A stretch of 35,570 nt of DNA from Bdellovibrionota bacterium (GTDB taxonomy: Bacteria > Bdellovibrionota_C > UBA2361), in NCBI GenBank assembly GCA_044352465.1, contig JBILDU010000020.1:1-35570 (forward strand). Reading direction: 5' to 3'. Shown piece after piece: positions 5,607-33,996 of the stretch. The notes under the pieces were generated by a model. It ran no database searches and was not told where the DNA came from. It saw only the letters and a program-made list of their open reading frames with translations. The position numbers were made by a program, and so were the translations under genes. Every line of letters begins with the position of its first letter. Position 1 is the stretch's first letter.

Positions 5607-7034
5607 GTGAGTGATCGAATCGCGGCTGTTTCTATCGTTATTTTCGTCGCCCTCCTCGGGGCAGTGCTCCGTATACTCGGAGGAGAGGGGGACCTGTGGT
5701 TCGACGAGGTGTGGACCCTCGAAACGCTCCAGCGGTTCGATGCACCCACTCAGATCCTCTCGCTCTATCGTCATCACACGAATCATCTACTCAACTCTTT
5801 CGTTCTCAATCTGCTCCCCCCGCTTCAACCTGATATAGTCTACCGTTTGCCCGCGATAGCTGCGGCTATCGCAGCGCTTCCGCTATTTTGGGCGTTCAAC
5901 CAACGTCAGCTCGGGAGCTATTCGCTCGGCGCATGCCTTTTGTTCGCCGTATCGGTCCCGGTTATCGCGTTTTCTACAGAGGCTCGGGGATTCAGTCTGC
6001 TGATCTTCGGGAGCCTCGTGGCTCTCTTGGTGCTCGATGACAATCTGCGTGATGAAGACTGGCGACTCATCGGTCTTTATTGGCTAGCGTGTATCGTCGC
6101 GTTTCTTGCCCATCCAAGCTTCGTGGTCTTTTTCTCGGCGCTGGTGGTGTGGTCGCTTTCCCTTGATTTCTCGGCTCGTTTCACCCGTACTATAGAGATT
6201 CTGGGAAAGTGCCATCTTGTCCCAGCGGCGGTCGGCGCGATCGTGTATCTGAGGTTCTATCAGTTCGTACCTCCGGAGAGTCTGGGAGCGCCCCCGCCCT
6301 TTCTTGATCTTTTCATCTCGGCGATGAGCCTTGCGGTGGGTGGTCCTGAGCTGATGGAGGCGGCGATCGGCGGGGTGTCGTTAGCGCGGCTCGTTGCAGG
6401 CTCGGTCGTCATACTCCTGGTAACCGAAACGTACCTTACCCTCCAGCGAGGTGGGCGCTATTGGATGTTGTACCTCGGTGGGGTCTTTGTGGCGCCATAC
6501 CTGTGGTATCTCTCGCCGCTCGTGCGTACCGACTCGGTCGCGTACTTTCTCCTGCCGACGATCGTGCTCTACCTCGCCCTTGGTTCTTTCGTAGCGCGGC
6601 TGATGAGTTTTAGTCTGCTCAGTCGCACAACGGCAGCGTTGCTGCTCGGCCTCGTCTGCTTCGGCAGTCTTTCGGGGCTCCATCTTGCAAGCGATAGCGG
6701 CCGCGGGAAGGTTCGACGAGCGTTTGCCTACATGGCCCAAAGCACGCAGGCCCCAATCGTTACGATCGCTGGAGATGACGATGTCGGCAACGAATTGTTT
6801 GTCGACTTTTATCTCCACCGGGTCGAGGTGGGGAAGCCGATCGTCTATCGCACCGCGGGTGAGCCCGGGCCCGCTGATGCGGAGTGGTACCTCGTTCGTC
6901 GGGATACCCTCGCAGCTGAACTCGATCACGAGATCGTGATGAGTGGCGGGCGACCATTCGAGCTTAAGAAGATTTTTCGACGGATGCTCCCTGCCGGGAC
7001 GAATCTGTACGTCTATCAACGGGCGGGGGAGTAG
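5607..7034 (+). CDS. GT-C fold integral membrane glycosyltransferase (PMT/ArnT-like)
   Basis: First loop carries DLWFDEVWT; also YRLP and TEARGFSL motifs, many TM helices and a soluble C-terminal tail. Confidence 0.75.
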   Translation: MSDRIAAVSIVIFVALLGAVLRILGGEGDLWFDEVWTLETLQRFDAPTQILSLYRHHTNHLLNSFVLNLLPPLQPDIVYRLPAIAAAIAALPLFWAFNQRQLGSYSLGACLLFAVSVPVIAFSTEARGFSLLIFGSLVALLVLDDNLRDEDWRLIGLYWLACIVAFLAHPSFVVFFSALVVWSLSLDFSARFTRTIEILGKCHLVPAAVGAIVYLRFYQFVPPESLGAPPPFLDLFISAMSLAVGGPELMEAAIGGVSLARLVAGSVVILLVTETYLTLQRGGRYWMLYLGGVFVAPYLWYLSPLVRTDSVAYFLLPTIVLYLALGSFVARLMSFSLLSRTTAALLLGLVCFGSLSGLHLASDSGRGKVRRAFAYMAQSTQAPIVTIAGDDDVGNELFVDFYLHRVEVGKPIVYRTAGEPGPADAEWYLVRRDTLAAELDHEIVMSGGRPFELKKIFRRMLPAGTNLYVYQRAGE

Positions 7035-7753
7035 CTTCCTGACGCATCCCCGGCTGTGCGAATGAATGCTTCGAGATTCACCCCCGCTCCGCGTCCGAGG
7101 ATATGGGCGAGGACCCGGAAGGTATCGTCGGCGAGAAGCTGTGCAGAGTCACGGGTAGTGAGCCGCTCGTGCTCAAAGACGACACGAATCACCTCCTTGT
7201 CTGCGTCGATAAGCACCGTGCGCTCAACCGTGGGGGTATAGCCAAAGAAGTTGGTGCGGCGGCTTCGGAAAAGCTCGAGCCCAAAGCGTATTCGATCGAT
7301 GACGAGGGGCCACATCCGACCGATCCTACGAACGTCGAGTACTTCGCTGAGAGCTCCGTGTCGCTCGATCGCAGTGCGGTGAGCGATGTGGTGGTCCCCA
7401 ACAAAGCTCTCGAACGCTGTGGTGATCGAGACATCGAAAGGTTCGCTCAGGCTCGCCGGTGTAATCTCCTCGACCTCTTCCTCGGGGGTTGGCGTTCGAC
7501 CTGCCACGAAAAGGATCTCTTCTCGCCGTGGGGTGAGATGCGACGGGGTCGCCACGTCGAGTATGACCGTTGGGTCGCGTCCTTTGCGGTCGGTGATGAT
7601 CTCCCCCTTGAGTGCTCCAGCGGGAACTAACTCGTTTACGAGTTCGGTGTAGAGGTCGCCGAGACCCCGCTTCGGCGAGGGGATGAGAAGCTCCAGGTGC
7701 GCGGTGAATCCCCACGGTATGAATGATCGCTTAAATAAGATCGAGCCGTGCAT
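7016..7753 (-). CDS. Hypothetical soluble protein (245 aa)
   Basis: Long ORF with protein-like composition converging on the glycosyltransferase; no motif recognised. Confidence 0.65.
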   Translation of the reverse strand: MHGSILFKRSFIPWGFTAHLELLIPSPKRGLGDLYTELVNELVPAGALKGEIITDRKGRDPTVILDVATPSHLTPRREEILFVAGRTPTPEEEVEEITPASLSEPFDVSITTAFESFVGDHHIAHRTAIERHGALSEVLDVRRIGRMWPLVIDRIRFGLELFRSRRTNFFGYTPTVERTVLIDADKEVIRVVFEHERLTTRDSAQLLADDTFRVLAHILGRGAGVNLEAFIRTAGDASGSYSPAR

Positions 7754-8563: not shown

Positions 8564-10033
8564 ATGTTGAAGCTCGTCGTTGTCGATCGGTCAGCCGAAT
8601 CGCGCCATCGTCTCGTCGAGCGGCTGCAGTGTCTTCTTGGCGGAGAGGTTCCAGACGCTCGATTCATTCCGCGGGTGAGCGTGATTCCGCGGGCACTGCA
8701 GGAGATAAAATTTCATGCGACCCCTGATATCTGCATTGTCGGCCGGGAAATTGCGGAGTCGGCGAGCGGAGAGTGCGCCGAGCTACGGCGAGCGCTACCC
8801 ACCACTCCTCTGATCGCTGAGCTTGGGTGCTCGGTGCCGCGTCTCGGCGATATCGAGCAGCTGGCCCGATACGGTATCGACGACGTACTACCCGCGGAGT
8901 TTCAAGCTACCGAACTGCTGCAGCGACTTGTCTTGCTGCTTCGTAAGCGAAACCTCGGGCGGTCGGGCCGGCTTGTCGTCGTCGAATCAGCCAAGGGTGG
9001 GTTGGGGGTGACCTCGGTTGCGGCTGGGCTTGCTGACGTCGCCACCGCTGCTGGAAAGAGCGCGGTGCTCGTCGATTTCGATACCGACACCCAAGATGCG
9101 GCGCGCTTTCTTGGGGCGCGCCCGTACCTGAATGAAATGCTTCAACAGATCTGTGAGTTGCGGCGGCCCCTTACTCAAGAGTTTGTTGAGCAGTGTCTCG
9201 TTTCGACTGGGGGTGCGGAAGGCGGTTTCAAGGTCGTGCCACCGATGCCCGGGGGGAGCTTCGTTGAGGGGGATGACGGCTCACTTGCCCGGACCCTTCT
9301 TGCGTTCCTTGAGATACTCGATCAGATGTTCGACGTCACGGTGATCGACGTCGGCAGCTCGCGTGGAGCGGTGCGTGAGCTTTTTCATCGGGTGGCCGAT
9401 GTCGTGGTGCTGGTAGTTTCAACCGACCCAGCGGCGCTGTATGCCACGGTTGAGTTCGCACGACGGCTCTCAGGCACCCTGGGCCCAACCGCTCGGCTTG
9501 TTGTCGCTGAGAATCGTACTGGGGGAGCTGGGCTCGCGAGTTCGTTTGTTCGCAGCGAGATCGCCCGCGCGGCTCGATTGGGTGAGGCCAAGCAGGCAGG
9601 TGTCGTTATTCCGTATTGTGCCCGCGCGGCGCTTTGGCCCGGCTCGGGCGAAACGTTTTTTCGCCACGGCGGGCGGGGTTTGAGTCGCGCCTTGGAGACC
9701 CTATGGAACGAGGTCGTCAGCGGCGCTCAACCGGTGGATCGGCCCGTCTCGATGGGCGAATTGAGTGGGGCCCGTGTCGTTGAGAGGGTGCGCAGTTTCG
9801 GAACGTTTGCTCTTCGAGCGATTCGCGCAGTGCGGTTCGGGGTGCTCTTCGGTCGTTCCGCTCCTACCCCAGTCGGTGCTGATTCCGCGGAACCCCATGC
9901 GGTCACGGGGCCATGCGAGATTCGTCAACCGAAGCTTCTCGAGTTGCCGGAGCCGCACAGGGCGCTCCCACTCGACCCGCGATCTCTTGTTTCCGGTCTA
10001 CAACAACGTCTAGCAACTGTTACGGAGGGCTAA
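8564..10033 (+). CDS. CpaE/TadZ-like protein: pseudo-receiver plus MinD/ParA-type domain
   Basis: N-terminal receiver-like fold (MLKLVVVD, PDICIVG), deviant Walker A SAKGGLGVTS, VLVDFD, DVTVIDVG. First gene of the Tad-like operon, with GGAG upstream. Confidence 0.8.
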   Translation: MLKLVVVDRSAESRHRLVERLQCLLGGEVPDARFIPRVSVIPRALQEIKFHATPDICIVGREIAESASGECAELRRALPTTPLIAELGCSVPRLGDIEQLARYGIDDVLPAEFQATELLQRLVLLLRKRNLGRSGRLVVVESAKGGLGVTSVAAGLADVATAAGKSAVLVDFDTDTQDAARFLGARPYLNEMLQQICELRRPLTQEFVEQCLVSTGGAEGGFKVVPPMPGGSFVEGDDGSLARTLLAFLEILDQMFDVTVIDVGSSRGAVRELFHRVADVVVLVVSTDPAALYATVEFARRLSGTLGPTARLVVAENRTGGAGLASSFVRSEIARAARLGEAKQAGVVIPYCARAALWPGSGETFFRHGGRGLSRALETLWNEVVSGAQPVDRPVSMGELSGARVVERVRSFGTFALRAIRAVRFGVLFGRSAPTPVGADSAEPHAVTGPCEIRQPKLLELPEPHRALPLDPRSLVSGLQQRLATVTEG

Positions 10034-10234
10034 ATGAAAAAGAGAATAGTTCGAGTGATTCGCCTTAGTGGAGGCGGGGAGCGAGGCTATACCCTGCTTG
10101 AGTATGTCGCCGGAGCTGCGATTATCGGTGGGATCGTTTTCACCGCTCTGACGAGCTTTGGAAACGATATGGCGGGATTCTTGGGAAATCTCGGCTCGTG
10201 GACTCAGGCCCGTGGCGCCGAGTTAGCTCAGTAG
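10034..10234 (+). CDS. flp: Flp-type (Tad) prepilin
   Basis: 66 aa; basic leader ending ERG, then YTLLEY (Glu+5/Tyr+6 Flp motif) and a hydrophobic helix. Confidence 0.88.
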   Translation: MKKRIVRVIRLSGGGERGYTLLEYVAGAAIIGGIVFTALTSFGNDMAGFLGNLGSWTQARGAELAQ

Positions 10235-10244
10235 GTCGAGCGCC

Positions 10245-11156
10245 ATGGCGAAGCGAACGATGGAGCGGCCCCACGCGAAGCGGGGAAGGCACACGCTCGT
10301 TGGATTAGTACTCCTTGGCACGGCGATCGTCGGTGCGGCGTTCATCCTCCGGGAGGGACGGTACCCGACGGTCGCCCAGCCGCCTCCTCCGGTTGTGGCT
10401 CAATTCGATGTGGTGCCGGTTCCGGTCCCTGTCGAACCGGTCGCGGGGGGGACGCGGATAAAGCAGATAAAATTTAAAAATGTGATGTATCCGCGTCACC
10501 AACTACCGGAAGGAGCTCTCCTCGATATCGCCCCGGTTCGTGAGGGGATCGTGGCGGCACCACTTCCCGCGAACCTCCCCCTCTTTCGGGCCAATATCAC
10601 CCTCACGGTGCCAGGGAATCCGGTGACGGAGCGTATTCCGCCGGGGATGCGCGCGATGACCCTGAAGGTTGATGCGACGGCGGCGGTTGAGGGATGGGCC
10701 GGTTCAGGCACGATCGTTGATGTTCTCTTAATCGAGAAAGATCGGACGACGGTCGTGGCCGAGAAGGTGAAAATTCTCTCGGCTGAGCGGTCGGTGTCTC
10801 CGGTGGAGGGCGGCGGTACCCCGCACGTTCCGAGCACCGTCACCCTACTGGTAACTCAAGAGCAATGTCTCGCCATTAATACCGCGATCCCGCGCGGACG
10901 AATCGCTTTTGCTCTCCGTAGTGGGCGTGATGAAGCGACGTGGGGAGATCCGATTTACACCGCGGAGAGACTCAAAGGTGGGGATGCCCTGAGCGAAAGC
11001 ACCCCCGATACGATCTCAGGCTATGCCATCGTCCACGGATCGTCGGGCGGTAACTCGTTCGCGCTTGCTAACGGTCGTTGGGTGCGCGCCGAGGCTGTAC
11101 CGGAGGGCTTTCTTGTCGCGCGGGGTGTTGATTCGCGCATACCTATGAAACGGTAG
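10245..11156 (+). CDS. cpaB: Flp pilus assembly protein CpaB/RcpC
   Basis: N-terminal TM and SAF-like segment, IPPGMRAMTLKVD, VEGWAGSGTIVDVLL, VKILSA, TVTLLVT. Confidence 0.9.
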   Translation: MAKRTMERPHAKRGRHTLVGLVLLGTAIVGAAFILREGRYPTVAQPPPPVVAQFDVVPVPVPVEPVAGGTRIKQIKFKNVMYPRHQLPEGALLDIAPVREGIVAAPLPANLPLFRANITLTVPGNPVTERIPPGMRAMTLKVDATAAVEGWAGSGTIVDVLLIEKDRTTVVAEKVKILSAERSVSPVEGGGTPHVPSTVTLLVTQEQCLAINTAIPRGRIAFALRSGRDEATWGDPIYTAERLKGGDALSESTPDTISGYAIVHGSSGGNSFALANGRWVRAEAVPEGFLVARGVDSRIPMKR

Positions 11157-11168
11157 AGGAACAGTCGG

Positions 11169-12527
11169 ATGCAACCAGCAACCACCTTGCCCCGTGTTTT
11201 CGAGCCCACGGATCCCCCCGCGGTCATCGCGACGCGTACCCCCCGGTACGGCTCTACGGGGTCGACCCCGGCTATCGTGCATATACTCGAATCGGTGCGG
11301 CGTCAGCGGGGTGACGCGGGACCGATGCAAGTCGAGGCCTCGCTCGGTGAGGTCGAGCTTGATGCGACGATTCGGGAGGTCGCTCAATCGTTCGGTTTTG
11401 AGCTCTCGCCTTTTGAGTATGACGAGATCAAGGCTCATCTGGAACGGGATCAAAAGCTGTTCGGGGTGCTGCAGGTGCTCGTTGATACGCCGACCGTCTC
11501 GGATATCATCGTCACAAATTTTTCCCAGATCGCGGTCCAGCAGGGACGGCGGACTGTCGGCACCGATCTTTCGTTCACCTCTCTCGAGGCTTACGAAGCC
11601 TTTGTGGAGCGACTCCTTCACCGTGCGGGCACGAGTTATTCGACGAAGAGGCCGATCGCTGATGGAATGATCGGAGATTTTGCCCGTATTCACGCGGTGC
11701 ATCGGTCTCTGTGTGAGTCGGGTCCTTATCTGACGGTGCGGCTTAACCGATTCTCCTCGGTAGCGCTTGAGGACCTCGAGCGGGCGGGGTTTGCGCCCCG
11801 CCCGGTGCTTGATTATCTGCGTACCCTCGTTGGCTGGGGGCGGACCGTTCTTGTCGTTGGCGAGGTCGGCACGGGGAAGACGACGCTCACGCGGGCACTG
11901 GCGGCGAGTATTCCGCCCTCTGAGTCGATCCTTGTCATCGAAGACACGCCTGAAATTCGACTGAAGCATCCCCATGTGCGCTATGTCTCAACCCGCGAAG
12001 CCAATGCGGAGGGAGCCGGCCGGGTATCTCCGACCGAATGCATCCGGGCCGGGATGCGTATGGCGATGAACCGCATCATCTTCGGGGAGATTCGCGATGC
12101 CGAGGCGGCGGAAGCCTTTGTTGATGTGTGTGCCTCGGGGCATCCCGGTCTGTCGACCCTCCACGCGCGGAGCGCTCTCGAAGCTATCGCTCGGATGGAG
12201 CTTTTTCTAGGGCGGGCTCAACGTGGTGCTGATCGTGCGGTCCTCACCGAGCAGATCGTCACCGCTGTCCAGGTGGTGGCTTTCGTTGATGTTTGCCGTG
12301 ATACCGGGCAGCGTCGCATCAAAGAGGTTCGTGAGATCGGTCCGGTCGCGGATGGAGTTATTCGTCATCGGGAGATGTTTCGTTATGCCGTTGAGGGTGG
12401 CGTGCCGGTGTGGCGCGTGCAGGGCCGTTTAAGCGCTCATCGCGATCTCCTTGAGGGAGGTAGTAATCCCGTGGTGTTAAGCGCCTTGCCGCCGCGCCTC
12501 ACCGTCTTGAGGGGAGATTCGGCATGA
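11169..12527 (+). CDS. cpaF: Tad pilus ATPase CpaF/TadA
   Basis: Walker A GEVGTGKTT, Asp box IEDTPE, Walker B IIFGEIR, His box GHPGLSTLHA. Confidence 0.92.
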   Translation: MQPATTLPRVFEPTDPPAVIATRTPRYGSTGSTPAIVHILESVRRQRGDAGPMQVEASLGEVELDATIREVAQSFGFELSPFEYDEIKAHLERDQKLFGVLQVLVDTPTVSDIIVTNFSQIAVQQGRRTVGTDLSFTSLEAYEAFVERLLHRAGTSYSTKRPIADGMIGDFARIHAVHRSLCESGPYLTVRLNRFSSVALEDLERAGFAPRPVLDYLRTLVGWGRTVLVVGEVGTGKTTLTRALAASIPPSESILVIEDTPEIRLKHPHVRYVSTREANAEGAGRVSPTECIRAGMRMAMNRIIFGEIRDAEAAEAFVDVCASGHPGLSTLHARSALEAIARMELFLGRAQRGADRAVLTEQIVTAVQVVAFVDVCRDTGQRRIKEVREIGPVADGVIRHREMFRYAVEGGVPVWRVQGRLSAHRDLLEGGSNPVVLSALPPRLTVLRGDSA

Positions 12528-13309
12528 TCGGATATCGAGCGCGATTGCAGGCGCAAGGGGAATTTTTGCTGAGTCGGCCACGTGCGCCGAAGAGAGGGAG
12601 AAATCGTGTCTCTCGACCTTGGGTAGGCACAGCTCTTGTATGGAGTGGTGTGGCCGCAGCGCTATCGCTGGGTGCTCTTTATGGTCCACTCAAAGCGGCT
12701 TTGGCGCTTTTCCTCGGTGTTGGAATCGGCGCGATGCTGCGAGGGCGGCGTAAATTCGCCCAGATGGAGGCGTTTGAGCGGGACTACCCGGCATTACTGG
12801 TTTCACTGGCATCTTCGGTTCGGGCGGGGCTCGACCCGTTAGTAGCGCTGATGTCCGCGCGAACGTTGTTCCCACCTGAGGGATCCGTTCGCCGAGAGCT
12901 CGACGTTTTCGCCCAAGCGATCGAGGCTGGCGCGAGAGAAGAGGACGCGCTCAGACGTTTCGGTGCGACGGTTGCACATCCCGATGTCGTCCTTCTTCAA
13001 AACGCTTTTCTCCTCGCTCGGCGGGAGGGAGCTTCGCTCGGCGAGTGCTTACACCGCTTAGCGCGGGTGACCCGGCAGCGCCAATCTTTTCGCCGCAAGA
13101 TTCGCGGAGCGGTAGCGATGCAGCGGATGTCGGCGATCGGTATCGCGGGTTGCGCTGTGGTGATCGGGGTCTTCCAATCGATCTCAAATCCTCAAGGCAT
13201 CGCCAATGCTGTGGCCGATACGCGGGGTGTGATGGCGCTGTCGTTTGGTGGTGCCCTCGTCGCGGGAGGGCTTATCTGGATGATCTATCTCGTTCGCGCA
13301 CGGATATAG
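12524..13309 (+). CDS. tadB: TadB-like inner-membrane platform protein (T2SS F domain)
   Basis: LASSVRAG, REGASLGECLHRLARVTRQR, two C-terminal TMs; ATGA overlap with cpaF. Confidence 0.82.
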   Translation: MIGYRARLQAQGEFLLSRPRAPKRGRNRVSRPWVGTALVWSGVAAALSLGALYGPLKAALALFLGVGIGAMLRGRRKFAQMEAFERDYPALLVSLASSVRAGLDPLVALMSARTLFPPEGSVRRELDVFAQAIEAGAREEDALRRFGATVAHPDVVLLQNAFLLARREGASLGECLHRLARVTRQRQSFRRKIRGAVAMQRMSAIGIAGCAVVIGVFQSISNPQGIANAVADTRGVMALSFGGALVAGGLIWMIYLVRARI

Positions 13310-13312
13310 GGT

Positions 13313-15511
13313 ATGGATGCGTTTTTAGGGCTCCTCGGGTGTGTGGTCTTGGTTTTGTGCGGTAGCGCCTTCCTTCTGGGGACGCAGCGCCGGACCCCGG
13401 TTGATGTGGTGATCGATCTAGCGGAAGAGGGTCCTCAGGGGGGAGTTGGCCCAACGGCAAGGAAAAGTTCCGCTAAAGCACAGGCTCCCATCGCTACCGG
13501 GACGCAGGCCGCTTTACTCGGAGGGAGCGGTGGGGCGCTCGTGGGCTGGTTGGCTGGCTTAGCACCCGGCCAGGTCGCGGTATTCGCTGCAGCGGGGATT
13601 GCGGCGGGCTATCTCCTTATCCAGGCACTTTTCCGACGGAGTAAAGAGCGCCTCCGGCAAAACTATATCTTTCACCTTCCCCTGGTGATGGAGAGCGTCG
13701 TCATGGCGGTTGAAGCCGGTGCGGATGTGTTGGGTGCGATCGGACGGGTCGTGAAGCTCGAAGATGACTCGATGTCTCGAGTGTCCATCGATCCGGTGAC
13801 GTCACTCCTCGGTGTTGCGCTCGAGCGGGTGGAGCAAGGCGCCGGTCTCGAGGAAACCTTACGCGAGCTCGGCGCTGAGTGCGAGGTCACGGCGGTACGC
13901 CACGCTTTTCTCCATCTCGCGCTGGCCCACCGTGAGGGGGGAGAGTTGGTCCAACCGCTTCGCGAGCTCGGCAACTCCACCCAGGTCTTTTTCCAAGAGA
14001 CCGTGGAGGAGGAGATCGCCAAGCTCCCGGTTCGGGCAACAGCACCGCTCCTTTGCATGTTTACGGGGCTCATCATCTGTTTTGTTACCGTGCCGCTTCT
14101 TCAGGTCAGCTCAATGACCAAGCGGGCGTTGCCGGAAAAGGCACTTCCGCCCCTTTCAGGGGAGCGAGGTTCGATGACGTTGTTTGTCCTTTTTTTTGTT
14201 TTTCCGATTATCTACCTCCTCGCCACGCTCTCGCTCGATCTCCGGGCGGCAACCATCGAGACCTCCGCGCGCCAACGTATTCTGGATGAGGCTGTTCTTG
14301 CCGGTGTCCGGGGTATGCCCCGGCCCGAGGCAGCGCGAGATTTTACCCGTCAGTACCTCAATCGTTTTGGTTTCACCGCGGAGGCTGCGGTGAGAGCCGA
14401 TGCTTCGACGGTGAGCGTCACGGTAGAGGGGGTCACGAAGTTGTCGTTCCCGAGCCTGCTCGGAGTCGATGCTGGTGTACCGTATACCTTGCATGCGCGT
14501 GCGCGTGCCCGACCAGTCGACGCTGTCATCGCTCTCGATCTGGGCGCGTATCTCGCTCCATCGGAGAGTGGCTTTACTGCCTGGGGTGCCGAGTCGGAGT
14601 GGGGCGCAGCGGAGTATTTCGTTCGTATAGCCGATCGATTCGTTCCCCCCGCCGACCCGCGCCTGTCGACTGCACGATGTTTTAATTTCACCGTGTCAGC
14701 GCTCAAACGCGCTGCTATCGGGGCGCACGATTACCTCGGTGCCTTTAGCGATAGCCGGATCGGGCTAGGGCTTTTCCCCGGGGACGGGCTGCCGTTTCAG
14801 TTTGTGCGATCGTTCGCCGCGACTGGGGATACGGTGGCGGATCTCCCAACGTATGCAACCCGCACCGTCACTGCCGACGACTGCGCCGCCGCAGCGGTGG
14901 AGGAGCGCTGGTTCGAGCAATACCGTTTCCCGGCAAACCCGTATCGAAACGGGTCGCCGCCTGAGGAGGGGCTGGGATGGGGCGAGGCCGGTGCGACGAC
15001 CCCTCGAACGGTGGGAGCCGCTGTGTGGATGAGTCCGGTACGAGAAGTCAGCCCGGTGTCAAACGGAATAGGGGATTTCGGAGCCGTTCTCGAAGGTGTC
15101 CTGAGCGCACTTCTCGGCGCTCCCGCGGCTGATGGGCGGGGTGGCTTTAGTCGGAATCCCCGCCGTCTGGGATTGATTTTAATGGGGGATCTCCCCCACG
15201 TGGGCGGGTTTCGTTTCCCGAGCGAGGAGGTTTCCGAACGTATCGATTCGATCCTTGAAACGTTTCGACCGATGATTGTGGAACATCAACCAAGAGTCGT
15301 GATCTACGTGGTGATTCTACCACCACCCGGCCGTGAGCTCGACTCGTTCGAGCGACAGGCGCTCGATCAATATTTCACTTCGCGCGAGGTGCGAGCAGCG
15401 GAGTTGCTCCTCGATATCGAACCGATCTTTCCAAGCGATCCAGAGGCCCTTCGAGATTCGATTCTTCCCGCGATATTGATCGACCGTAGCGGCGGAGGGA
15501 TCGCCCGGTGA
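13313..15511 (+). CDS. TadC-like platform protein fused in frame to a TadG-like pseudopilin with a degenerate vWA domain
   Basis: Residues ~1-267 are TadC-like (MAVEAG, EGGELVQPLREL, EEEIAKLPVRATAPL plus a TM). ERG|SMTLFVLFFVFPIIYLLATLSLD, RILDEAVLAG and PVDAVIALD follow. No stop codon in 14101-14180. Confidence 0.78.
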   Translation: MDAFLGLLGCVVLVLCGSAFLLGTQRRTPVDVVIDLAEEGPQGGVGPTARKSSAKAQAPIATGTQAALLGGSGGALVGWLAGLAPGQVAVFAAAGIAAGYLLIQALFRRSKERLRQNYIFHLPLVMESVVMAVEAGADVLGAIGRVVKLEDDSMSRVSIDPVTSLLGVALERVEQGAGLEETLRELGAECEVTAVRHAFLHLALAHREGGELVQPLRELGNSTQVFFQETVEEEIAKLPVRATAPLLCMFTGLIICFVTVPLLQVSSMTKRALPEKALPPLSGERGSMTLFVLFFVFPIIYLLATLSLDLRAATIETSARQRILDEAVLAGVRGMPRPEAARDFTRQYLNRFGFTAEAAVRADASTVSVTVEGVTKLSFPSLLGVDAGVPYTLHARARARPVDAVIALDLGAYLAPSESGFTAWGAESEWGAAEYFVRIADRFVPPADPRLSTARCFNFTVSALKRAAIGAHDYLGAFSDSRIGLGLFPGDGLPFQFVRSFAATGDTVADLPTYATRTVTADDCAAAAVEERWFEQYRFPANPYRNGSPPEEGLGWGEAGATTPRTVGAAVWMSPVREVSPVSNGIGDFGAVLEGVLSALLGAPAADGRGGFSRNPRRLGLILMGDLPHVGGFRFPSEEVSERIDSILETFRPMIVEHQPRVVIYVVILPPPGRELDSFERQALDQYFTSREVRAAELLLDIEPIFPSDPEALRDSILPAILIDRSGGGIAR

Positions 15512-16227
15512 GAAACAGAGGAGGAATCGGTGTGCGAATTCGGGACGTACGAGGGTCCTGCGGGGATAATGGCGTAGCTCTTCTCGAGCTGGCACTTCTC
15601 AGCGTGGTTGTACTCCCAGTCCTGCTCATGGGTCTCGCGCTCGTTCGGTATATGGAGTTAGGACGCGAGCTTTCGATTGCGGTGGAATACGCCCTTCGTG
15701 CGGAAGAGGGGGTGCCGTGGCGGATAACTCCTAATTCTCGCGGGGAGAGCGTGATTGAGGTTGATCGGGAGGCGATCGATCGAGCCGTTGAGGACTCGGT
15801 GCGGCGAGTGGAGCAAGTCATCGTTCGAGATTCGTTGGGTGTCAACTCGGGGCGATACCGGGTCGAGTCAGCGATGGTCCTGGTGGGGATAGACCGGGTG
15901 ACCGGTCGACCTGAGATCGAGGGAGCTGAGATCCGCTCTCGAGCCGTGGGTGGGTTGCCGGTGAAAAGCCGTGATCTGACCGCGACCGCCCCCTCCGCGC
16001 TTGTGGCAGCGCTCGCCCGTTCGTCCCCCGCGGAGGGCCAGAGCGCTTTGTCTGTTCGGGATAACCCTGGCGCGGCGGGATACTTCGGTCTTGTGCCGGT
16101 TGTTGTCGTGCGCGCCTTTCGATCGATCGGATCTGAGGAGATGGGCTTTTTCCTTGAATCAATGGGTCTCCCCTCTTACGTTTTTGCGGCTGAAGTCGGC
16201 CTCGTTCGAGTGGAGGCGGGGGTATGA
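15508..16227 (+). CDS. TadE-like pseudopilin
   Basis: Basic leader ending DNG, then VALLELALLSVVVLPVLLMG (Glu at +5). GTGA overlap with the preceding gene. Confidence 0.78.
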   Translation: MRNRGGIGVRIRDVRGSCGDNGVALLELALLSVVVLPVLLMGLALVRYMELGRELSIAVEYALRAEEGVPWRITPNSRGESVIEVDREAIDRAVEDSVRRVEQVIVRDSLGVNSGRYRVESAMVLVGIDRVTGRPEIEGAEIRSRAVGGLPVKSRDLTATAPSALVAALARSSPAEGQSALSVRDNPGAAGYFGLVPVVVVRAFRSIGSEEMGFFLESMGLPSYVFAAEVGLVRVEAGV

Positions 16228-17492
16228 AGTTACGTCGGTGGTGGCAACGTCTTTGTCGGAGTTTCGCCGTTGGTCGGGGACTGGGCTTTAGGGGCGGAGT
16301 TTCTCTCGATGACTTTTTACTGGGTTACGTGACGCGAACGGAGTACGCCCATATCGTCGCCACGACCCCCGATCGTCGCATGATTATCGATGCGGTGGCG
16401 ACGTCTCGTGGAATCGAGTCTCTCGACATAGTAAGAAAATGGGGGGCTCAGCGGGGATGCCGCTCTTTGGAGCGCCCCGCGTGCGCTGATTTCACGGTCT
16501 TACCGGCGGATGTATCGCCCGAGCTTTTGGCGCGAAGTGGCGCAACGGTGGTGACAAGCGGCGCTCTTATCGAGGCGTTAGTCTGCGTCGATCCAGATAC
16601 GATTGAGCACCTCCGGGTAGCGCTGGGGGATGTTGAGATCGTTGTCGCGCCGTGGCGTGAGATTGAGCGACAGCTCGGTGAATCAACGGGGGCTCTCGCA
16701 GAGATAAAAGCTGCCGAACAGCGGGAGTCGATCGAACGGTTGCGCGAAACGACCGCGGCGGTCTTGGGGATCGTTGTCCAAGAAATAGTCGATCGTGGTG
16801 CCTCCGCTGTTTATCTCGATCTGACGATGGAGGACCCAACCTATACCCTTGGCGAGAGCAGCCAGAGCGGAGTGCAGGGGGTCTTACACGCGATGCTACG
16901 CCCGACACTTGAGGAGACCTTGGGCTGCGACACCGCTGAGATCGAGCTTCCCTCCGGTGTTCGTATCGCCGCGACGATAGAGCGAGATGCCGCGAGGAAA
17001 TGCTTCACCTTGCGGTGGGCTCACGCGAGACCGGCGGCGCCGACTCCCCCGGCGGTTTCGTCGGGCCCTCCCACGCCCCACCCGAAAGGGATAGCGTCGC
17101 CGCGGTTACGGAAAAATGTCTTTGTCATCGAAGATAATCCAAGTTTTCGGGCGATTCTGACCGCCTATATCGAGCGGCAGGGCTTCGGTGTGACCCCTTT
17201 CTCCGCTGCCATAGATGCTTGGAGCGCCCTTCAAGAGGGGGTCGATCTTGATGTCATCGTCTGTGATCTCCATATGGTCGAGATGAGTGGGTACGATTTT
17301 ATCCGGCGCCTCCGCGCTACTCGGGTAGGCCGAAACGTTCCGGTGATTGCGTTAAGCTCGGCCGATGATGTTGAGACGGAGCTGCAGATGCTTCGCGCCG
17401 GGGTTGCGGCGTTCATCTCTAAGGGAGCGGATCCGCGGATTCTCGGAGCTCATATCGAACGACTGTGCCTTGGCCTCGAAGGGGAGAGCTGA
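16224..17492 (+). CDS. Response regulator: PilB/GspE N-terminal-like domains plus C-terminal receiver, no ATPase
   Basis: Receiver motifs VIEDN, IVCDLHM, LSS, SKG. N-terminal segments LVCVDP...IVVAPWREIERQL and IVVQEIVDRGASAVYLD resemble the PilB/GspE N1 and N2 domains. No Walker A. Confidence 0.75.
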   Translation: MKLRRWWQRLCRSFAVGRGLGFRGGVSLDDFLLGYVTRTEYAHIVATTPDRRMIIDAVATSRGIESLDIVRKWGAQRGCRSLERPACADFTVLPADVSPELLARSGATVVTSGALIEALVCVDPDTIEHLRVALGDVEIVVAPWREIERQLGESTGALAEIKAAEQRESIERLRETTAAVLGIVVQEIVDRGASAVYLDLTMEDPTYTLGESSQSGVQGVLHAMLRPTLEETLGCDTAEIELPSGVRIAATIERDAARKCFTLRWAHARPAAPTPPAVSSGPPTPHPKGIASPRLRKNVFVIEDNPSFRAILTAYIERQGFGVTPFSAAIDAWSALQEGVDLDVIVCDLHMVEMSGYDFIRRLRATRVGRNVPVIALSSADDVETELQMLRAGVAAFISKGADPRILGAHIERLCLGLEGES

Positions 17493-17497
17493 GACTC

Positions 17498-19375
17498 ATG
17501 TCGATCCGCGGAGCCGTCGTCAGCTGTGTTGGTGCGGGATGTCTCGGTGTCGCGGGATATGAGGTTGCAGGTCTAGGGACGTTGGTGCTCCTATTCCTCC
17601 TCTGCGCGAGTCGATTTGATCGGGGGGTGCGTCGTCTCGAGGGGGTTCTGGATATTCCCATGGCGCAGCTATCGTCTGCTCGGGCGAATGGATGGGGTGT
17701 CCGAATGGGACTCATCGAGTCGGCGCTCCGGTACCTCAAGACGAAGAGTGAGGTGATATCGGTGCCCTCTCTTTATCGACGCGAAGCCGGACGGCGCGAT
17801 ACCCCGGATTCCCACTCTGAGGCGCAATTGTGGCCGCGGGCGCTGAGCGAAATCGGTGCCCTCAGCGGCGTGGCCGGAGCCGCGCTCATAACCTCCGCGG
17901 CTGGAGGTCGCCCCATCGTTCACGGTGCCCTAGGAGAGTCGAGTCGATTTCGTGGGGTGGTTGAGCGGCTTTACGGTGGTTATTTCTTCCATGGAGAGCC
18001 TCCCGAGGTGGGCGGCACCGACCGGGTGGTGCGTTGCTCCGTTTTCGGTGATTTCGCTCAGCTGGGTTATCGCTATTCGCTCGCCTATCCGTTTGGCTTT
18101 ACTCGAAATGGGGAGGTCTGGCGAGGACTCGTGTGGCTCGGGTTCGCCGCTCCTTGTCCGCCGCGAGAGAAGCATGTCGTCGTGGTGGAGAGCCTCGTCC
18201 GCCGATTGGAGGAGGACCTCCGGCTGCTTGAGGCAGTGCGCGGCGTCTCGGCGCGAGCGCGGCTCGCTGAGACCTCAAGCGCCCGTAAGTCAGAATTTTT
18301 AACCCAGGTGTCCCACGATATTCGGTCGCCGCTCCATAATATCCAAGCTGTTCTAGGGTGTCTTAAAGAGCAACTCTCGGACCCCCGTGCTCACGAACTT
18401 ATCGATACGGCGGCGCGAAACTGCGACGGTGTGGGCGAACTTGTCGAAGATGTTCTTGATTTCACCCGCTTCAAGGAGGGGCAGTTGCCGGTGCGGGCCG
18501 ATGAAGTCGGAGTTGTCGCGGTGGTTGAGGAGTTGGTGCGGCGTTTTACCGTGGCCGCTGCGGCAAAGGGGCTTGAGTTAGTTCGGAGTTACCCGAACAG
18601 CGAGCTCTTCGTGCGGGTCGATCGCCGCCACCTCAGACGGATCGTCTCCAACCTCGTCGGGAATGCGATTAAGTACACCGAGCGCGGCGCCGTGAGGATT
18701 GAGATAGCGCCTACCCATTCCCATGGCCTTATCAGAGTGCACGACACCGGCATCGGTATGTCTGAAGCTGAAGTCGCGGCGCTTTTTACACCGTTCAGCC
18801 GGTGTGGAGATAGGAGTATCGAAGGGATCGGGCTCGGCCTCTTTGTGACACGCGCGCTGGTTGAGCTCAACGGAGGCAGTGTCACCGTCTCTTCCACCCC
18901 TCATGTGGGCTCCGTTTTTTCCGTCTGCCTGCCTATTTCGGCGCCCCAAGCCGATATCTGCCCACATCCGACGGCGATCATACATACCCCCACGGACAAT
19001 TCGAGCGTTCGTCAGTTGGATACCCGCCCGACCGTACTGATCGTCGATGATGATCGCGATTCGTGTACAAGCCTGGCGCGTGCATTCTCGCGCTACCCAG
19101 TAGAAACGACGATAGCGACCTCGATTCCCGAGGCGATAAGCCTCTTTAACTTTTCCGCTCCCGATGTAGTCATCACCGATTTGGGGATGCCGTTAGGGGG
19201 CGGAGAACGTCTCCTCGAATACGTTCACTCGTGTGGGCGTGCGACCCAGCTGTACTGTCTGACGGGTGGAAGCGCCCCTCCCGCAGCGACCCGATTAAGA
19301 ATTAACGGTGTATTTCAAAAGCCGGTCGATGTCAGTGAGCTCTGGCGTTCAATCCTCGTTACTGCGGCGCCATAG
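17498..19375 (+). CDS. Membrane-anchored hybrid sensor histidine kinase
   Basis: H box SHDIRSPL, N box NLVGNAIKYT, G1 HDTGIGM, F box LFTPF, G2 GIGLGL; C-terminal receiver (IVDDD, TDLGMP, QKP). Likely ATG at 17498. Confidence 0.92.
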   Translation: MSIRGAVVSCVGAGCLGVAGYEVAGLGTLVLLFLLCASRFDRGVRRLEGVLDIPMAQLSSARANGWGVRMGLIESALRYLKTKSEVISVPSLYRREAGRRDTPDSHSEAQLWPRALSEIGALSGVAGAALITSAAGGRPIVHGALGESSRFRGVVERLYGGYFFHGEPPEVGGTDRVVRCSVFGDFAQLGYRYSLAYPFGFTRNGEVWRGLVWLGFAAPCPPREKHVVVVESLVRRLEEDLRLLEAVRGVSARARLAETSSARKSEFLTQVSHDIRSPLHNIQAVLGCLKEQLSDPRAHELIDTAARNCDGVGELVEDVLDFTRFKEGQLPVRADEVGVVAVVEELVRRFTVAAAAKGLELVRSYPNSELFVRVDRRHLRRIVSNLVGNAIKYTERGAVRIEIAPTHSHGLIRVHDTGIGMSEAEVAALFTPFSRCGDRSIEGIGLGLFVTRALVELNGGSVTVSSTPHVGSVFSVCLPISAPQADICPHPTAIIHTPTDNSSVRQLDTRPTVLIVDDDRDSCTSLARAFSRYPVETTIATSIPEAISLFNFSAPDVVITDLGMPLGGGERLLEYVHSCGRATQLYCLTGGSAPPAATRLRINGVFQKPVDVSELWRSILVTAAP

Positions 19376-21788: not shown

Positions 21789-22760
21789 TCAGTTTGTGGC
21801 TTTTTTCGAACGTCGCTCGGTGTGGAGCGAAGCTAAAACGCCTATCCCCAAGAGGCCACCGATCACCACCAGCGATAGCTCTGGGGAGATATGGATATGT
21901 CCGGTGAGGGTCATCTTTAGCCCTACGAAGAAAAGCACCGCGACGAGGCTCGCTTTCAGGTATTTCACCCGGTCCATAAAAGCTGCCAGAGCGAAGTAGA
22001 GCGAACGGAGATTTAAGATCGCGAAGATATTCGAGGTAAAGACGATGAAGGGGTCGCTGGTGATAGCGAATACGGCCGGGATTGAGTCCACCGCGAAGAG
22101 TACGTCGGTGCTTTCGATGATAAGTAACACGAGAAAAAGCGGGGTGATCGCCCGCCGGCCATCGATTCGGGTGAAGAACTTCTCCCCATCAAGTTGGCTG
22201 CTCACGGGATAAAGTCGCTTCGCGAGACGAAAGAGGATGTTGTGTTCCGGGTTCAGATCCATCTCTTTGGCGAGCATGATCTTCATTGCGGCGTAAATCA
22301 GTAGCGCCCCGAATACATAGTGAATCCATGAAACATGGCGAATGAGCGCGACACCGAGCGCGATCATCACTCCCCGCATTATCAGCGCTCCTAAAATTCC
22401 CCAGAACAGAACGCGGTGTTGGAATTGGAGCGGCACTTTAAAATACGAAAAGATGAGCGCGATGACGAAGACGTTATCGAGGCTTAAACTTTGCTCGATA
22501 AGCCATCCGGTAAAAAACTGAAGCGCAGCCTGTTGTCCGGTAAGGGGGTTGTTTGGATCGGTTCCGAGTCCGAAGAGTTGGACGGAGTACATCCACCAGA
22601 GGAGTGCGTTAAAAAGAAGCGCCAGGACCACGCATACCCCGGTCCATCGCAGCGCTTCGCTCGCGGAGATTACTCGGGGTCCCTTATGAAAAGCTCCAAG
22701 ATCGAGGGCGAGCATGAAGAGCACGAAGGCGATAAAACCGATCCAGAGGAAAGCAATCAT
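21789..22760 (-). CDS. TerC family membrane protein, Alx-like
   Basis: LALDLG, EQSLSLDNVFV, QHRVLFWGILGALIMR, DVLFAVDSIPA, FTSNIFAILNLRSLYF. Confidence 0.92.
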   Translation of the reverse strand: MIAFLWIGFIAFVLFMLALDLGAFHKGPRVISASEALRWTGVCVVLALLFNALLWWMYSVQLFGLGTDPNNPLTGQQAALQFFTGWLIEQSLSLDNVFVIALIFSYFKVPLQFQHRVLFWGILGALIMRGVMIALGVALIRHVSWIHYVFGALLIYAAMKIMLAKEMDLNPEHNILFRLAKRLYPVSSQLDGEKFFTRIDGRRAITPLFLVLLIIESTDVLFAVDSIPAVFAITSDPFIVFTSNIFAILNLRSLYFALAAFMDRVKYLKASLVAVLFFVGLKMTLTGHIHISPELSLVVIGGLLGIGVLASLHTERRSKKATN

Positions 22761-27397: not shown

Positions 27398-27772
27398 TCA
27401 GGAGAGGAAGATCCGTATGCCGTAGTCGAGTTGCTTCGCTGTGAACGGTTTCGTGATGTAGTAATCTGCGCCGCTTTGATAGCCTTGCAGGATCTCGCTA
27501 TCTTGATCCTTCGCGGTCACCATAATGATAGGGATATCTTTGAACTCAGGAAGCGCCTTAAGCGCTTTCATGACCTCGTAGCCGTTCATCTCAGGCATCA
27601 TAATATCGAGCAAGGCCATGTCGATCTTCTGGCCTTTGATTTTTTCGAGCGCCTCTTTGCCTGAAGCAAATCCGGTGTAGCTGAAGCCCAACGCATCGAG
27701 CATCGCGCACAGGGCGTTCCGGCTATCGTTGTCGTCTTCGACGACGAGGATCTTCTTTTTGGTTGCAGTCAT
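27398..27772 (-). CDS. Single-domain response regulator
   Basis: VVEDD, LLDIMMP, MVTA, YITKPF. Confidence 0.92.
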   Translation of the reverse strand: MTATKKKILVVEDDNDSRNALCAMLDALGFSYTGFASGKEALEKIKGQKIDMALLDIMMPEMNGYEVMKALKALPEFKDIPIIMVTAKDQDSEILQGYQSGADYYITKPFTAKQLDYGIRIFLS

Positions 27773-33568: not shown

Positions 33569-33996
33569 CGTAACCTCCGCGAATTTGAATTTCAAAAAAC
33601 CTTGCGTGTGCTGAGGAACACCTCTGCGCCTCATTAGGGTACGGTTTTCATTCGGCCAAGCCAAATTCGCTTCGCCTCAAAATTTCCCAAGCGTGGTCGC
33701 GATCGGTTTATCTCTCTCACGGCGTTAAGAGTTGGCGATGCGGGTCTTCTCCCTTTGGCGGAGCGGTGGGGGGCGAGCTTTGAAAAAGTACTGCTTATCC
33801 ATTGTGGTGGCTCTCCCCGGTTCACAGGAGCGGCGCCGCTTGTAACGGTCTCACGTCCGTACCGGCCCTCTCACAACCCGTCTAGCTGTTTCAACAAAGC
33901 TTGTATAGGCTAGGACCACCCTCGCATAGAGGTGAGAGGACCGTTTTAGAGGCGGTCGAAATAAGTCTTATTTTTTTGGTTCGGTCCCTACTACCC

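What the first reader, a model, noticed from the sequence alone, without database searches (positions are those of the whole stretch)
16224..17492. ATPase-less PilB/GspE N-terminus fused to a phosphorylatable receiver inside a Tad operon
Seen: a segment like the T2SSE N1 domain (SPELLAR...LVCVDPDTIEHLRVALGDVEIVVAPWREIERQL). It is followed by IVVQEIVDRGASAVYLD, echoing the RGASDIHIE motif of PilB/GspE N2, then a Pro-rich linker and an intact receiver (ED, D in CDLHM, S, K). There is no Walker A or B. The extreme N-terminus may be a degenerate MshEN-type pair lacking the RLG arginines. Known: these N domains dock type IVa pilus/T2SS motors on their platforms and are not Tad components. Inference: a phospho-controlled decoy or adaptor that could cross-regulate a T4aP/T2SS machine or gate the Tad motor.
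Basis: partly seen in the sequence, partly recalled or inferred. Interest (0 to 1): 0.75.

Follow-up and report, generated by a model that had tools for sequence, protein, structure and literature searches.

The report
Motor-less PilB half fused to receiver
A gene inside a Tad pilus operon encodes a response regulator whose output part is a folded copy of the front half of a pilus or secretion motor without its ATPase engine, probably a phosphorylation-controlled regulator of the pilus machine whose function nobody has yet tested.

Summary
ORF 16224-17492 (+) encodes 422 aa. Its C-terminal receiver is intact: Pfam Response_reg E 9.5e-20, with acidic pair, D348, S379 and K400. It has no Walker A.

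Pfam, NCBIfam and phmmer against PDB sequences see nothing in residues 1-295. An exhaustive HMMER search found 65 clusters, 276-521 aa. Of the 67 aligned proteins, 65 carry the receiver.

With that alignment AlphaFold2 gives pLDDT 90.6. The model has a four-helix bundle, an alpha/beta N1 subdomain, a 47-residue helix and an N2-like domain.

Foldseek against PDB puts PilF GSPII-B, MshE-N, GspE and PilB at the top: 15 hits at E<=1e-3, probability 0.98-1.00. EpsE, PilB and PilF cores follow, matching over about 100 columns.

Sequence evidence is weak. In total 15 of 67 members have sub-threshold MshEN hits in one register. An hhalign test did not beat a reversed control. The c-di-GMP motif is absent in 0 of 67.

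The gene overlaps its Tad and kinase neighbours. A 'MshEN - REC' architecture is already catalogued (PMC5013675). I class this as a new variant of a known kind.

The parts
16224..17492 (+). Whole gene (422 aa, P0001). GGAGG lies 9 nt upstream. The ATG overlaps the upstream stop codon (ATGA).
16224..16301 (+). aa 1-26: basic, Trp/Phe-rich leader, modelled as a helix (aa 2-16). The character, not the sequence, is conserved in the family (median K+R fraction 0.25).
   Evidence: a membrane- or partner-docking role is inference
16302..16454 (+). aa 27-77: four-helix bundle like the MshEN_N subdomain. Family-invariant D50 (66/66) and R52 (65/66). The canonical c-di-GMP motif is absent.
16476..16652 (+). 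aa 85-143: alpha/beta subdomain like MshEN_C / T2SSE N1. Holds the C121-V-D-P124 motif (P124 in 66/67).
   Evidence: sub-threshold PF05157 hits of 15 relatives map to this region
16653..16793 (+). aa 144-190: one long helix that starts at invariant W144 (67/67) and links N1 to N2. Median charged fraction 0.36.
16794..17018 (+). aa 191-265: N2-like domain (three strands, helix, three strands). Y207 in 66/67, G219 in 65/67. The segment GASAVYLD occupies the place of GspE's GASDIHIE.
   Evidence: (EpsE 1p9w, PilB 5zfr/5tsh, PilF 5oiu/5it5; 97-108 columns, prob 0.99-1.00)
17019..17114 (+). aa 266-297: Pro-rich, low-confidence linker. Its length varies in the family (0-128 aa, median 43).
17115..17468 (+). 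aa 298-415: receiver domain. The phospho-acceptor D348 is encoded at 17265-17267.
17465..19375 (+). Hybrid histidine kinase (HisKA, HATPase_c, REC; no Hpt found). It starts at GTG 17465 (28-nt overlap) or at ATG 17498 (5 nt after the stop).
8564..16227 (+). Upstream Tad genes: CpaE/TadZ-like 8564-10033; Flp-like pilin ORF 10034-10234; CpaB 10245-11156; CpaF/TadA 11169-12527; TadB-like 12524-13309; TadC-like with a long C-terminal extension 13313-15511; a 239-aa protein with a hydrophobic N-terminal segment 15508-16227.

Best explanation
What it is (shown). P0001 belongs to an uncharacterised family of response regulators of about 430 aa. In the searches that reported a source, members came only from metagenome collections. 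The receiver sits at the C-terminus. The output module is the non-catalytic front half of a PilB/GspE/MshE-type secretion ATPase. That module consists of a GSPII/MshEN domain (four-helix bundle plus N1 alpha/beta subdomain), a long connecting helix and an N2 domain. The RecA-like ATPase domain is missing.

What it does not do (shown). It cannot hydrolyse ATP, and it lacks the canonical c-di-GMP-binding motif.

How it most likely works (inferred). It is translated together with the Tad genes and with the downstream hybrid histidine kinase. The kinase, directly or through an unseen Hpt protein, sets the phosphorylation state of D348. The receiver then changes how the N1-N2 module is exposed or oligomerised. 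That module docks on the cytoplasmic face of the Tad machine: the CpaF hexamer, the TadB/TadC platform or the CpaE/TadZ-like organiser. The basic aromatic leader may help at the membrane. Docking would tune pilus assembly or retraction.
For: Receiver: Pfam 71.3 bits, with all phospho-chemistry residues conserved.

Family: 65 clusters at 50% identity have E<=1e-3 to aa 1-295, with lengths 276-521. Of the 67 aligned proteins, 65 carry Response_reg.

Selection on the N-region: mean pairwise identity is only 24%, yet D50, R52, P124, W144, Y207 and G219 are near-invariant.

Fold: the AF2 model of aa 1-295 has pLDDT 90.6 and pTM 0.76 from family sequences alone. Foldseek/PDB finds PilF GSPII-B (8pfa_A, E 1.4e-4, target TM 0.54), MshE-N (5htl_B, E 2.2e-4, target TM 0.60), GspE with GspL (4pht_B, 192 columns), a PilB model (3jc8, 204 columns) and XpsE-N / X. 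citri PilB-N. ATPase cores of EpsE, PilB and PilF match over 97-108 columns with probability 0.99-1.00.

Independent lead: the ESM Atlas feature and structure searches point to MshEN/T2SSE clusters.

Sequence: sub-threshold MshEN hits in 15/67 members share one register, while unrelated noise families hit one member each.

No ATPase: no Walker A and no T2SSE hit.

Operon: the ATGA start/stop overlap, GGAGG upstream, and a kinase start that overlaps or lies 5 nt downstream. Terminator-like sites are no more frequent than in shuffles (15 against 12.6). The neighbours are Tad genes.

Background: N1 binds GspL, PilB-N binds PilZ, and N2 packs on the neighbouring ATPase domain. The first two rest on PDB entry titles (4pht, 7lkn); the third is recalled. 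PMC11656802 (passages) describes CpaF as one bifunctional motor.
Against: The Tad linkage is seen in this one window only. The context of the 65 relatives could not be fetched. The one genome-contig scan returned only receiver-level matches.

Sequence-level homology is not established:
- P0001 has no PF05157 hit at E<=10.
- phmmer and a 3-sequence profile against PDB sequences gave no PilB/GspE hit.
- hhalign against a GspE N-terminal profile scored 25.1, but the reversed control scored 26.8.
- hhalign against one PilB was colinear but had P 0.069.

The N2 assignment rests on Foldseek E values of only 7e-3 to 1e-2.

The kinase is hybrid and no Hpt domain was found, so direct phosphotransfer to D348 is uncertain.
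Confidence: 0.5

Rival explanations
1. Nucleotide receiver. The MshEN_N-like bundle binds c-di-GMP or another small ligand through a non-canonical site that uses invariant D50 and R52. The protein would then integrate second-messenger and phosphorylation inputs for the Tad system.
For: The closest folds are c-di-GMP-bound GSPII-B and MshE-N. D50 and R52 are invariant at the start of helix 3. PMC5013675 (passages) states that perfect motif conservation may not be needed, and that the REC-MshEN_N protein Bd2402 binds c-di-GMP (Kd 0.4 uM, supplement).
Against: Neither the relaxed nor the strict 24-residue motif matches any of 67 members, while NfrB matches twice. By my own reading of the sequence, the RLG glycine and the closing Gln have no conserved counterpart. 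XpsE lost binding through similar substitutions (PMC5013675 passage), and PilF GSPII-A does not bind (PMC11731258 passages).
Confidence: 0.15
2. Cross-talk decoy. The N1-N2 module titrates partners of a different machine encoded elsewhere (GspL or PilM, PilC, PilZ of a T2SS or T4aP). Tad expression would then silence or redirect that machine.
For: The known partners of N1 domains are T2SS/T4aP parts (GspL in 4pht, PilZ in 7lkn). Tad systems lack GspL/PilM homologues (recalled).
Against: No T4aP or T2SS gene is among the window ORFs I scanned. The family is very far in sequence from real PilB/GspE N domains: no PilB or GspE appears among the 65 hits, and the family HMM gives E 1.9 on a real PilB and 2.9-4.4 bits on E. 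coli GspE. That distance argues against mimicry of a resident motor's surface. The rest of the genome is unknown.
Confidence: 0.1
3. Phosphate sink or phosphorelay connector. The receiver only drains or relays phosphate from the hybrid kinase, and the N-terminal region is a structural relic with no binding function.
For: The adjacent kinase is a hybrid without Hpt. Single-purpose sink receivers are known (PilH is described as a potential sink in PMC11656802, passage).
Against: The N-region folds with high confidence. It keeps six near-invariant residues across 65 clusters at 24% mean identity. That is not what a relic looks like.
Confidence: 0.08
4. Convergent or unrelated fold. The N-region merely resembles GSPII/N2 and is not descended from a secretion ATPase, so inferences from PilB/GspE do not transfer.
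For: No calibrated sequence test reached significance.
Against: Three consecutive elements (bundle, N1, N2) occur in the same order as in PilB/GspE, with 192-204 aligned columns to full-length GspE/PilB chains. Fifteen register-consistent MshEN sub-threshold hits were found. The three weak sequence alignments place 'VCVDP..W' and 'GASAVYLD' opposite the equivalent N1 and N2 segments of HofB, GspE and a PilB.
Confidence: 0.07

Closest known systems
'MshEN - REC' proteins, e.g. Geobacter lovleyi Glov_2262 (Wang et al. 2016, PMC5013675, Supplementary Table 4; seen)
   Same: N-terminal GSPII/MshEN domain followed by a C-terminal receiver, with no ATPase domain. Uncharacterised.
   Different: Glov_2262 carries a recognisable MshEN_N motif (alignment row seen). 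This family matches the motif in 0/67 and escapes Pfam. Whether Glov_2262 has an N2 domain or lies near Tad genes is unknown to me, because its sequence was not retrievable here.
Bdellovibrio Bd2402 (REC - MshEN_N - unknown region)
   Same: A two-component receiver combined with part of the MshEN domain.
   Different: The domain order is reversed (receiver first). [quoted passage not shown]
N-terminal halves of PilB/PilF/MshE/GspE/XpsE ATPases (PDB 8pfa, 5htl, 4pht, 2d27, 7lkn, 1p9w, 5zfr, 5oiu)
   Same: Same succession of folds: bundle, N1, linker helix, N2.
   Different: No ATPase domain. The nucleotide-related motifs of N2 are not conserved (only Y207, G219 and W265 stand out). No c-di-GMP motif. 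Sequence similarity is below every threshold tested.
PilB with an added receiver (P0206, 813 aa; MshEN + T2SSE + Response_reg; named 'type IV pilus assembly protein PilB' by JGI)
   Same: Shows that receivers are fused to this motor family in nature.
   Different: P0206 keeps the ATPase. The family HMM does not recognise it (E 1.9).
CpaE/TadZ with an atypical receiver domain (the Tad organiser)
   Same: A receiver-like regulator encoded in Tad loci. The window has one at 8564-10033.
   Different: TadZ has a receiver-like N-domain plus a MinD/ParA ATPase. It has no GSPII or N2 domain.

Membership tests
Response regulator receiver (PF00072) | Profile match above the curated cut-off | tested here: met
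   71.3 bits against 30.2, aa 299-411
Response regulator receiver (PF00072) | Acidic pair, phospho-acceptor Asp, Thr/Ser, aromatic switch and Lys | tested here: met
   E303/D304, D348, S379, F397, K400. Family counts: D304 65/66, D348 65/65, S379 63/65, K400 65/65
MshEN / GSPII domain (PF05157) | Profile match above the gathering score | tested here: not met
   P0001 has no hit at E<=10. The best relative reaches 19.1 bits, below 23.1. In total 15/67 have sub-threshold hits in one register
MshEN / GSPII domain (PF05157) | Fold: four-helix bundle joined to a three-stranded alpha/beta subdomain | tested here: met
   AF2 pLDDT 90.6. Foldseek hits to 8pfa_A, 5htl_B, 6ejf_G, 2d27 and 7lkn_A with probability 1.00 and target TM 0.46-0.60
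MshEN / GSPII domain (PF05157) | Tandem 24-residue c-di-GMP-binding motif RLGxx(L/V/I)(L/V/I)xxG(L/V/I)(L/V/I)xxxxLxxxLxxQ | tested here: not met
   Strict and relaxed patterns from PMC5013675 match 0/67. The NfrB control gives 2 matches
PilB/GspE type II/IV secretion ATPase (PF00437) | Walker A/B ATPase core | tested here: not met
   No PF00437 hit. No Walker A in P0001. In the family 2/67 match by chance at non-homologous sites, against 92/93 GspE controls
PilB/GspE type II/IV secretion ATPase (PF00437) | N2 domain fold preceding the ATPase domain | tested here: inconclusive
   Foldseek hits to 1p9w, 5zfr_C, 5oiu_C, 5it5_A and 5tsh_C: 97-108 columns, rmsd 4.5-6.3, probability 0.99-1.00, but E only 6.6e-3 to 1.9e-2. 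Residue ranges are not shown. The secondary-structure order fits. A sequence test failed its reversed control
Tad (type IVc) pilus system accessory component | Encoded within a Tad operon | tested here: met
   Codon overlaps with the upstream Tad-linked ORF. CpaE-like, Flp-like, CpaB, CpaF, TadB and TadC lie upstream
Tad (type IVc) pilus system accessory component | Linkage to Tad genes conserved across relatives | not testable with these tools
   The relatives are protein records without contigs.
Tad (type IVc) pilus system accessory component | Physical interaction with CpaF, TadB/TadC or CpaE | not tested

The most novel reading that the evidence does not exclude
The family is a new class of pilus regulator: a phospho-switchable 'motor front-half mimic'. 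Its N1-N2 module would occupy, on the Tad platform or on the CpaF ring, the sites that PilB-type motors use. It would thereby gate, or set the direction (extension versus retraction) of, the single bifunctional Tad motor in response to the adjacent kinase.
Probability: 0.2. Interest if true: 0.8.

Novelty: new variant of a known kind. Interest (0 to 1): 0.5.

Why it matters
Tad pili use one ATPase, CpaF, for both extension and retraction. How that activity is switched is described as unclear in the review passages I read (PMC11656802).

This gene encodes a conserved regulator that has kept the docking half of a PilB/GspE motor, lost the engine and gained a receiver. Its position in the operon makes it a concrete, testable candidate for coupling an environmental signal to Tad motor activity.

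It also shows that at least 65 protein clusters, which Pfam sees only as receiver-domain proteins, carry a hidden GSPII-N2 module that current profiles miss. That bears on censuses of MshEN proteins and of response-regulator output domains.

Tried and rejected
Sequence searches on aa 1-295 that gave nothing useful:
- phmmer against PDB sequences: 0 hits at E<=10.
- A 3-sequence receiver-free profile (A3) against PDB sequences: 5 hits, all unrelated, E 0.14-1.2.
- Family HMM against E. coli GspE and HofB: 4.4 and -1.7 bits.
- hhalign against single GspE and HofB N-termini: probability 1.6% and 0.4%.
- hhalign against a 93-sequence GspE N-terminal profile: score 25.1, P 0.0071. I rejected this as evidence because the reversed family alignment scored 26.8; 25 column shuffles scored 10.0-21.3.
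- hhalign against the N-terminus of a real PilB (P0206): colinear over 170 columns, but P 0.069.

Searches for relatives and context:
- The word-indexed search with P0001 found one relative at 90% identity.
- The same search with the family alignment was swamped by receivers. It returned only 3 true members among 46 hits. The apparent hit P0188 is a triple-receiver GGDEF protein, not a member.
- The genome-contig scan found only receiver-level matches (L001, L002). The family HMM finds no member on them.
- tblastn against plasmids: no match.

Other attempts:
- The single-sequence AF2 model was useless (pLDDT 40.7).
- Complex prediction (CpaF with aa 20-270 of A2) never ran. The queue was full, and then the tool was declared unavailable.
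- The second ESM Atlas call (aa 176-270) did not complete three times.

Considered and rejected:
- That the ORF is spurious. It has 65 related clusters and a confident fold.
- That it is an active ATPase. It has no Walker A.

Literature searches:
- 'Bd2402', and 'GSPII' with 'receiver domain', and 'tad'/'CpaF'/'response regulator'/'histidine kinase' gave no paper describing this family in the listed titles and abstract starts. I opened only one of these hits, the review PMC11656802, through term passages.
- The 'MshEN' with 'response regulator' search held 51 papers. Of these I read only passages of PMC5013675, PMC11731258 and PMC11656802.
Full report
**The gene and its setting**

ORF 16224-17492 (+) encodes 422 aa, stored as P0001. 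A GGAGG lies 9 nt upstream. The ATG overlaps the stop codon of the preceding ORF as ATGA. The next ORF is a hybrid histidine kinase with HisKA, HATPase_c and REC domains. It starts either at GTG 17465, inside P0001, or at ATG 17498, 5 nt after the P0001 stop.

The upstream genes, all on the + strand, are:
- a CpaE/TadZ-like ParA/MinD ATPase (8564-10033);
- a 66-aa Flp-like pilin ORF (10034-10234);
- CpaB (TIGR03177, E 1.6e-30);
- CpaF/TadA (T2SSE, E 8.8e-32);
- a TadB-like T2SSF protein;
- a 732-aa TadC-like protein;
- a 239-aa protein with a hydrophobic N-terminal segment.

Terminator-like sites are no more frequent than in shuffled sequence, 15 found against 12.6 expected. The flanks carry yidC with its periplasmic domain, rnpA, an SLT_2 transglycosylase, holB, tmk and tatD. 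This is therefore chromosomal DNA of a probable diderm bacterium. No secretin, prepilin peptidase, T4aP gene or T2SS gene appeared among the ORFs I scanned.

**The receiver**

Pfam Response_reg matches aa 299-411 at E 9.5e-20, 71.3 bits against a cut-off of 30.2. NCBIfam matches cover only the receiver. E303/D304, D348, S379, F397 and K400 are in place. In the family alignment D348 is present in 65/65 sequences, K400 in 65/65, S379 in 63/65 and D304 in 65/66.

**The N-terminal 295 residues: sequence**

Nothing in Pfam matches at E<=10. NCBIfam has no match outside the receiver. phmmer against PDB sequences gives 0 hits. The word-indexed search found one relative at 90% identity.

The exhaustive HMMER search of 1.84 billion cluster representatives found 65 proteins at E<=1e-3. 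Twelve of these are at E<=1e-10 and 2 at E<=1e-30. Lengths run from 276 to 521 aa, and none has the length or domains of a real PilB or GspE.

I aligned these with P0001 and P0002 to give 67 sequences (A1). Of these, 65 carry Response_reg. This is a family with a fixed architecture.

The N-region is much less conserved than the receiver, with mean pairwise identity of 24% against 42%. Even so, it keeps these residues:
- D50 in 66/66;
- R52 in 65/66;
- P124 in 66/67, within a C-V-D-P motif;
- W144 in 67/67;
- Y207 in 66/67;
- G219 in 65/67.

Where a source is given, members come from metagenome collections. One is named 'CheY-like chemotaxis protein'. The Atlas cluster that looks like this family has no member with a known phylum.

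**The N-terminal region: structure**

A single-sequence AlphaFold2 run failed, with pLDDT 40.7. With alignment A2, which holds family sequences only and no PilB or GspE, the model of aa 1-295 reached pLDDT 90.6 and pTM 0.76. Its elements, in order, are:
- a leader helix (aa 2-16);
- four helices (aa 28-76);
- an alpha/beta unit (aa 99-141);
- one long helix (aa 144-190);
- a strand-strand-strand-helix-strand-strand-strand unit (aa 195-264);
- a disordered Pro-rich tail.

Foldseek against PDB returned 15 hits at E<=1e-3. The 11 shown are all N-terminal domains of type IV pilus or type II secretion ATPases, and the tool states that the rest are further chains of the same entries. The hits include:
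- T. thermophilus PilF GSPII-B (8pfa_A, E 1.4e-4, probability 1.00, target TM 0.54);
- V. cholerae MshE-N with c-di-GMP (5htl_B, E 2.2e-4, target TM 0.60);
- a PilB model (3jc8, 204 columns);
- V. vulnificus GspE with GspL (4pht_B, 192 columns).

Below these come ATPase cores matched over 97-108 columns with probability 0.99-1.00: EpsE 1p9w/1p9r, PilB 5zfr/5tsh and PilF 5oiu/5it5. XpsE-N (2d27) and X. citri PilB-N with PilZ (7lkn/7lkm/7lko) are also listed. Unrelated hits such as ribosomal proteins and GAF/PAS domains have probabilities of 0.11-0.87.

The ESM Atlas pointed the same way at lead level. Feature scores of 0.84-0.85 go to MshEN/T2SSE clusters, and structure TM values of 0.33-0.47 go to PilB/GspE clusters covering query residues from about 6 to 287.

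**Sequence-level tests of the same claim**

These are weak, and I report them as such.
- Sub-threshold PF05157 hits occur in 5/67 members at E<=0.01 and in 15/67 at E<=1.
- Per member, all 15 map to protein residues of about 66-155 against profile positions of about 1-90. The best score is 19.1 bits, below the 23.1 cut-off.
- Noise families hit one member each. The exceptions are receiver-like models.
- The family HMM barely scores E. coli GspE.
- hhalign against single sequences and against a 93-sequence GspE profile places 'VCVDP...W' opposite the HofB N1 strands and 'GASAVYLD' opposite 'GASDIHIE'.
- The profile score of 25.1 was, however, matched by a reversed control at 26.8. That test therefore carries no weight.
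- A real PilB with a fused receiver (P0206) aligns colinearly over 170 columns, but only at P 0.069.

My conclusion is that the fold match is solid. Common descent is likely from the colinear three-element order and the register-consistent hits, but it is not proven by a calibrated sequence statistic.

**What the module lacks**

P0001 has no Walker A. In the family 2/67 match the loose pattern, at non-homologous positions, against 92/93 GspE controls and CpaF's GEVGTGKT.

The c-di-GMP motif defined for MshEN was tested in its strict form and in the relaxed form used by its authors (PMC5013675: abstract, results and methods passages). It matches 0/67 members, while E. coli NfrB matches twice. 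The same paper reports that XpsE lost binding through substitutions at these positions. PMC11731258 (passages) reports that PilF GSPII-A does not bind. A non-canonical site around D50/R52 remains possible.

**A feature not in the finding**

The first 15-25 residues are basic and rich in Trp/Phe throughout the family, for example MKLRRWWQRL in P0001. The median K+R fraction is 0.25. This is compatible with an amphipathic membrane- or partner-docking helix. That reading is inference.

**How it probably works**

Shown:
- the domain composition;
- the loss of the ATPase domain and of the c-di-GMP motif;
- the intact receiver;
- the codon-overlap coupling with Tad genes and a kinase.

Inferred:
- the kinase controls D348;
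- the receiver controls exposure or oligomerisation of N1-N2;
- N1-N2 docks on the Tad motor or platform and modulates it.

The inference leans on what these domains do in real motors. N1 binds GspL (4pht), PilB-N binds PilZ (7lkn), and N2 packs on the neighbouring ATPase domain (recalled). It also leans on the review statement that CpaF alone drives both extension and retraction by an unclear switch (PMC11656802, passages).

I could not test binding, because complex prediction never accepted the job. I could not test whether relatives also sit in Tad loci. The supplementary figures of PMC5013675 were seen only as extracted text.

**Comparison with what is known**

MshEN is reported to combine with REC, GAF, CheA, cyclase and kinase domains (PMC5013675 passage). 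Its Supplementary Table 4 lists 'MshEN - REC' (Glov_2262; Deltaproteobacteria, Deinococcus-Thermus) and 'REC - MshEN_N - UNK' (Bd2402).

The architecture class is therefore known, though uncharacterised. What differs here is:
- a family invisible to PF05157;
- no c-di-GMP motif;
- a retained N2-like domain and long linker helix;
- in this window, a place inside a Tad operon.

I file it as a response regulator, for which membership is met. I describe it as 'GSPII/N2-fold-bearing', not as a PF05157 or PF00437 member. The profile criterion and the catalytic criterion were both tested and not met.

**Verdict**

Novelty is a new variant of a known kind. Interest is 0.5.

Noticed in passing
10034-10234 (+): A 66-aa ORF between the CpaE-like gene and cpaB. 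It has a Flp-pilin-like N-terminus (…GGGERGYTLLEYVAGAAIIGG…) and is likely the Tad pilin. The assignment rests on the motif as I recall it, not on a profile hit.
   Followed up: no
13313-15511 (+): A 732-aa ORF. A weak T2SSF match (aa 154-258, E 4.2e-4, below the cut-off) is followed by about 450 aa with a second hydrophobic segment and no Pfam hit. It may be a TadC fused to a TadG-like protein. No frameshift was checked.
   Followed up: partly
15508-16227 (+): A 239-aa protein with a TadE-like hydrophobic N-terminal segment (recalled resemblance). It has no Pfam or NCBIfam hit. Its stop overlaps the start of the gene under study.
   Followed up: partly
8564-10033 (+): In the CpaE/TadZ-like ATPase, the first roughly 130 aa look receiver-like by eye, but Pfam gives no match on aa 1-139. 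The ParA/MinD-type matches are all below their curated cut-offs.
   Followed up: partly
whole window: No secretin (CpaC/RcpA) and no prepilin peptidase appeared among the ORFs I scanned. The YidC periplasmic domain and an SLT_2 transglycosylase nevertheless suggest a diderm host.
   Followed up: no
27398-27772 (-): A stand-alone CheY-like receiver (E 6.6e-29) about 8 kb downstream of the kinase. It could be another partner of the hybrid kinase.
   Followed up: no
17465-18280 (+): The kinase's N-terminal roughly 270 aa (hydrophobic start, then about 200 aa) match no Pfam family at E<=1. No Hpt domain was found in the kinase.
   Followed up: partly
21789-22760 (-) and 33901-34716 (+): Two TerC-family membrane protein genes lie in one 35-kb window.
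   Followed up: no
5607-7034 (+), 7016-7753 (-): A 475-aa polytopic membrane protein and a 245-aa protein lie just upstream of the Tad cluster. Neither has any Pfam or NCBIfam match.
   Followed up: no
P0015 (294 aa) and P0045 (276 aa), relatives: Two family members lack the receiver. They may be stand-alone N1-N2 proteins or truncated records. I could not tell which.
   Followed up: no
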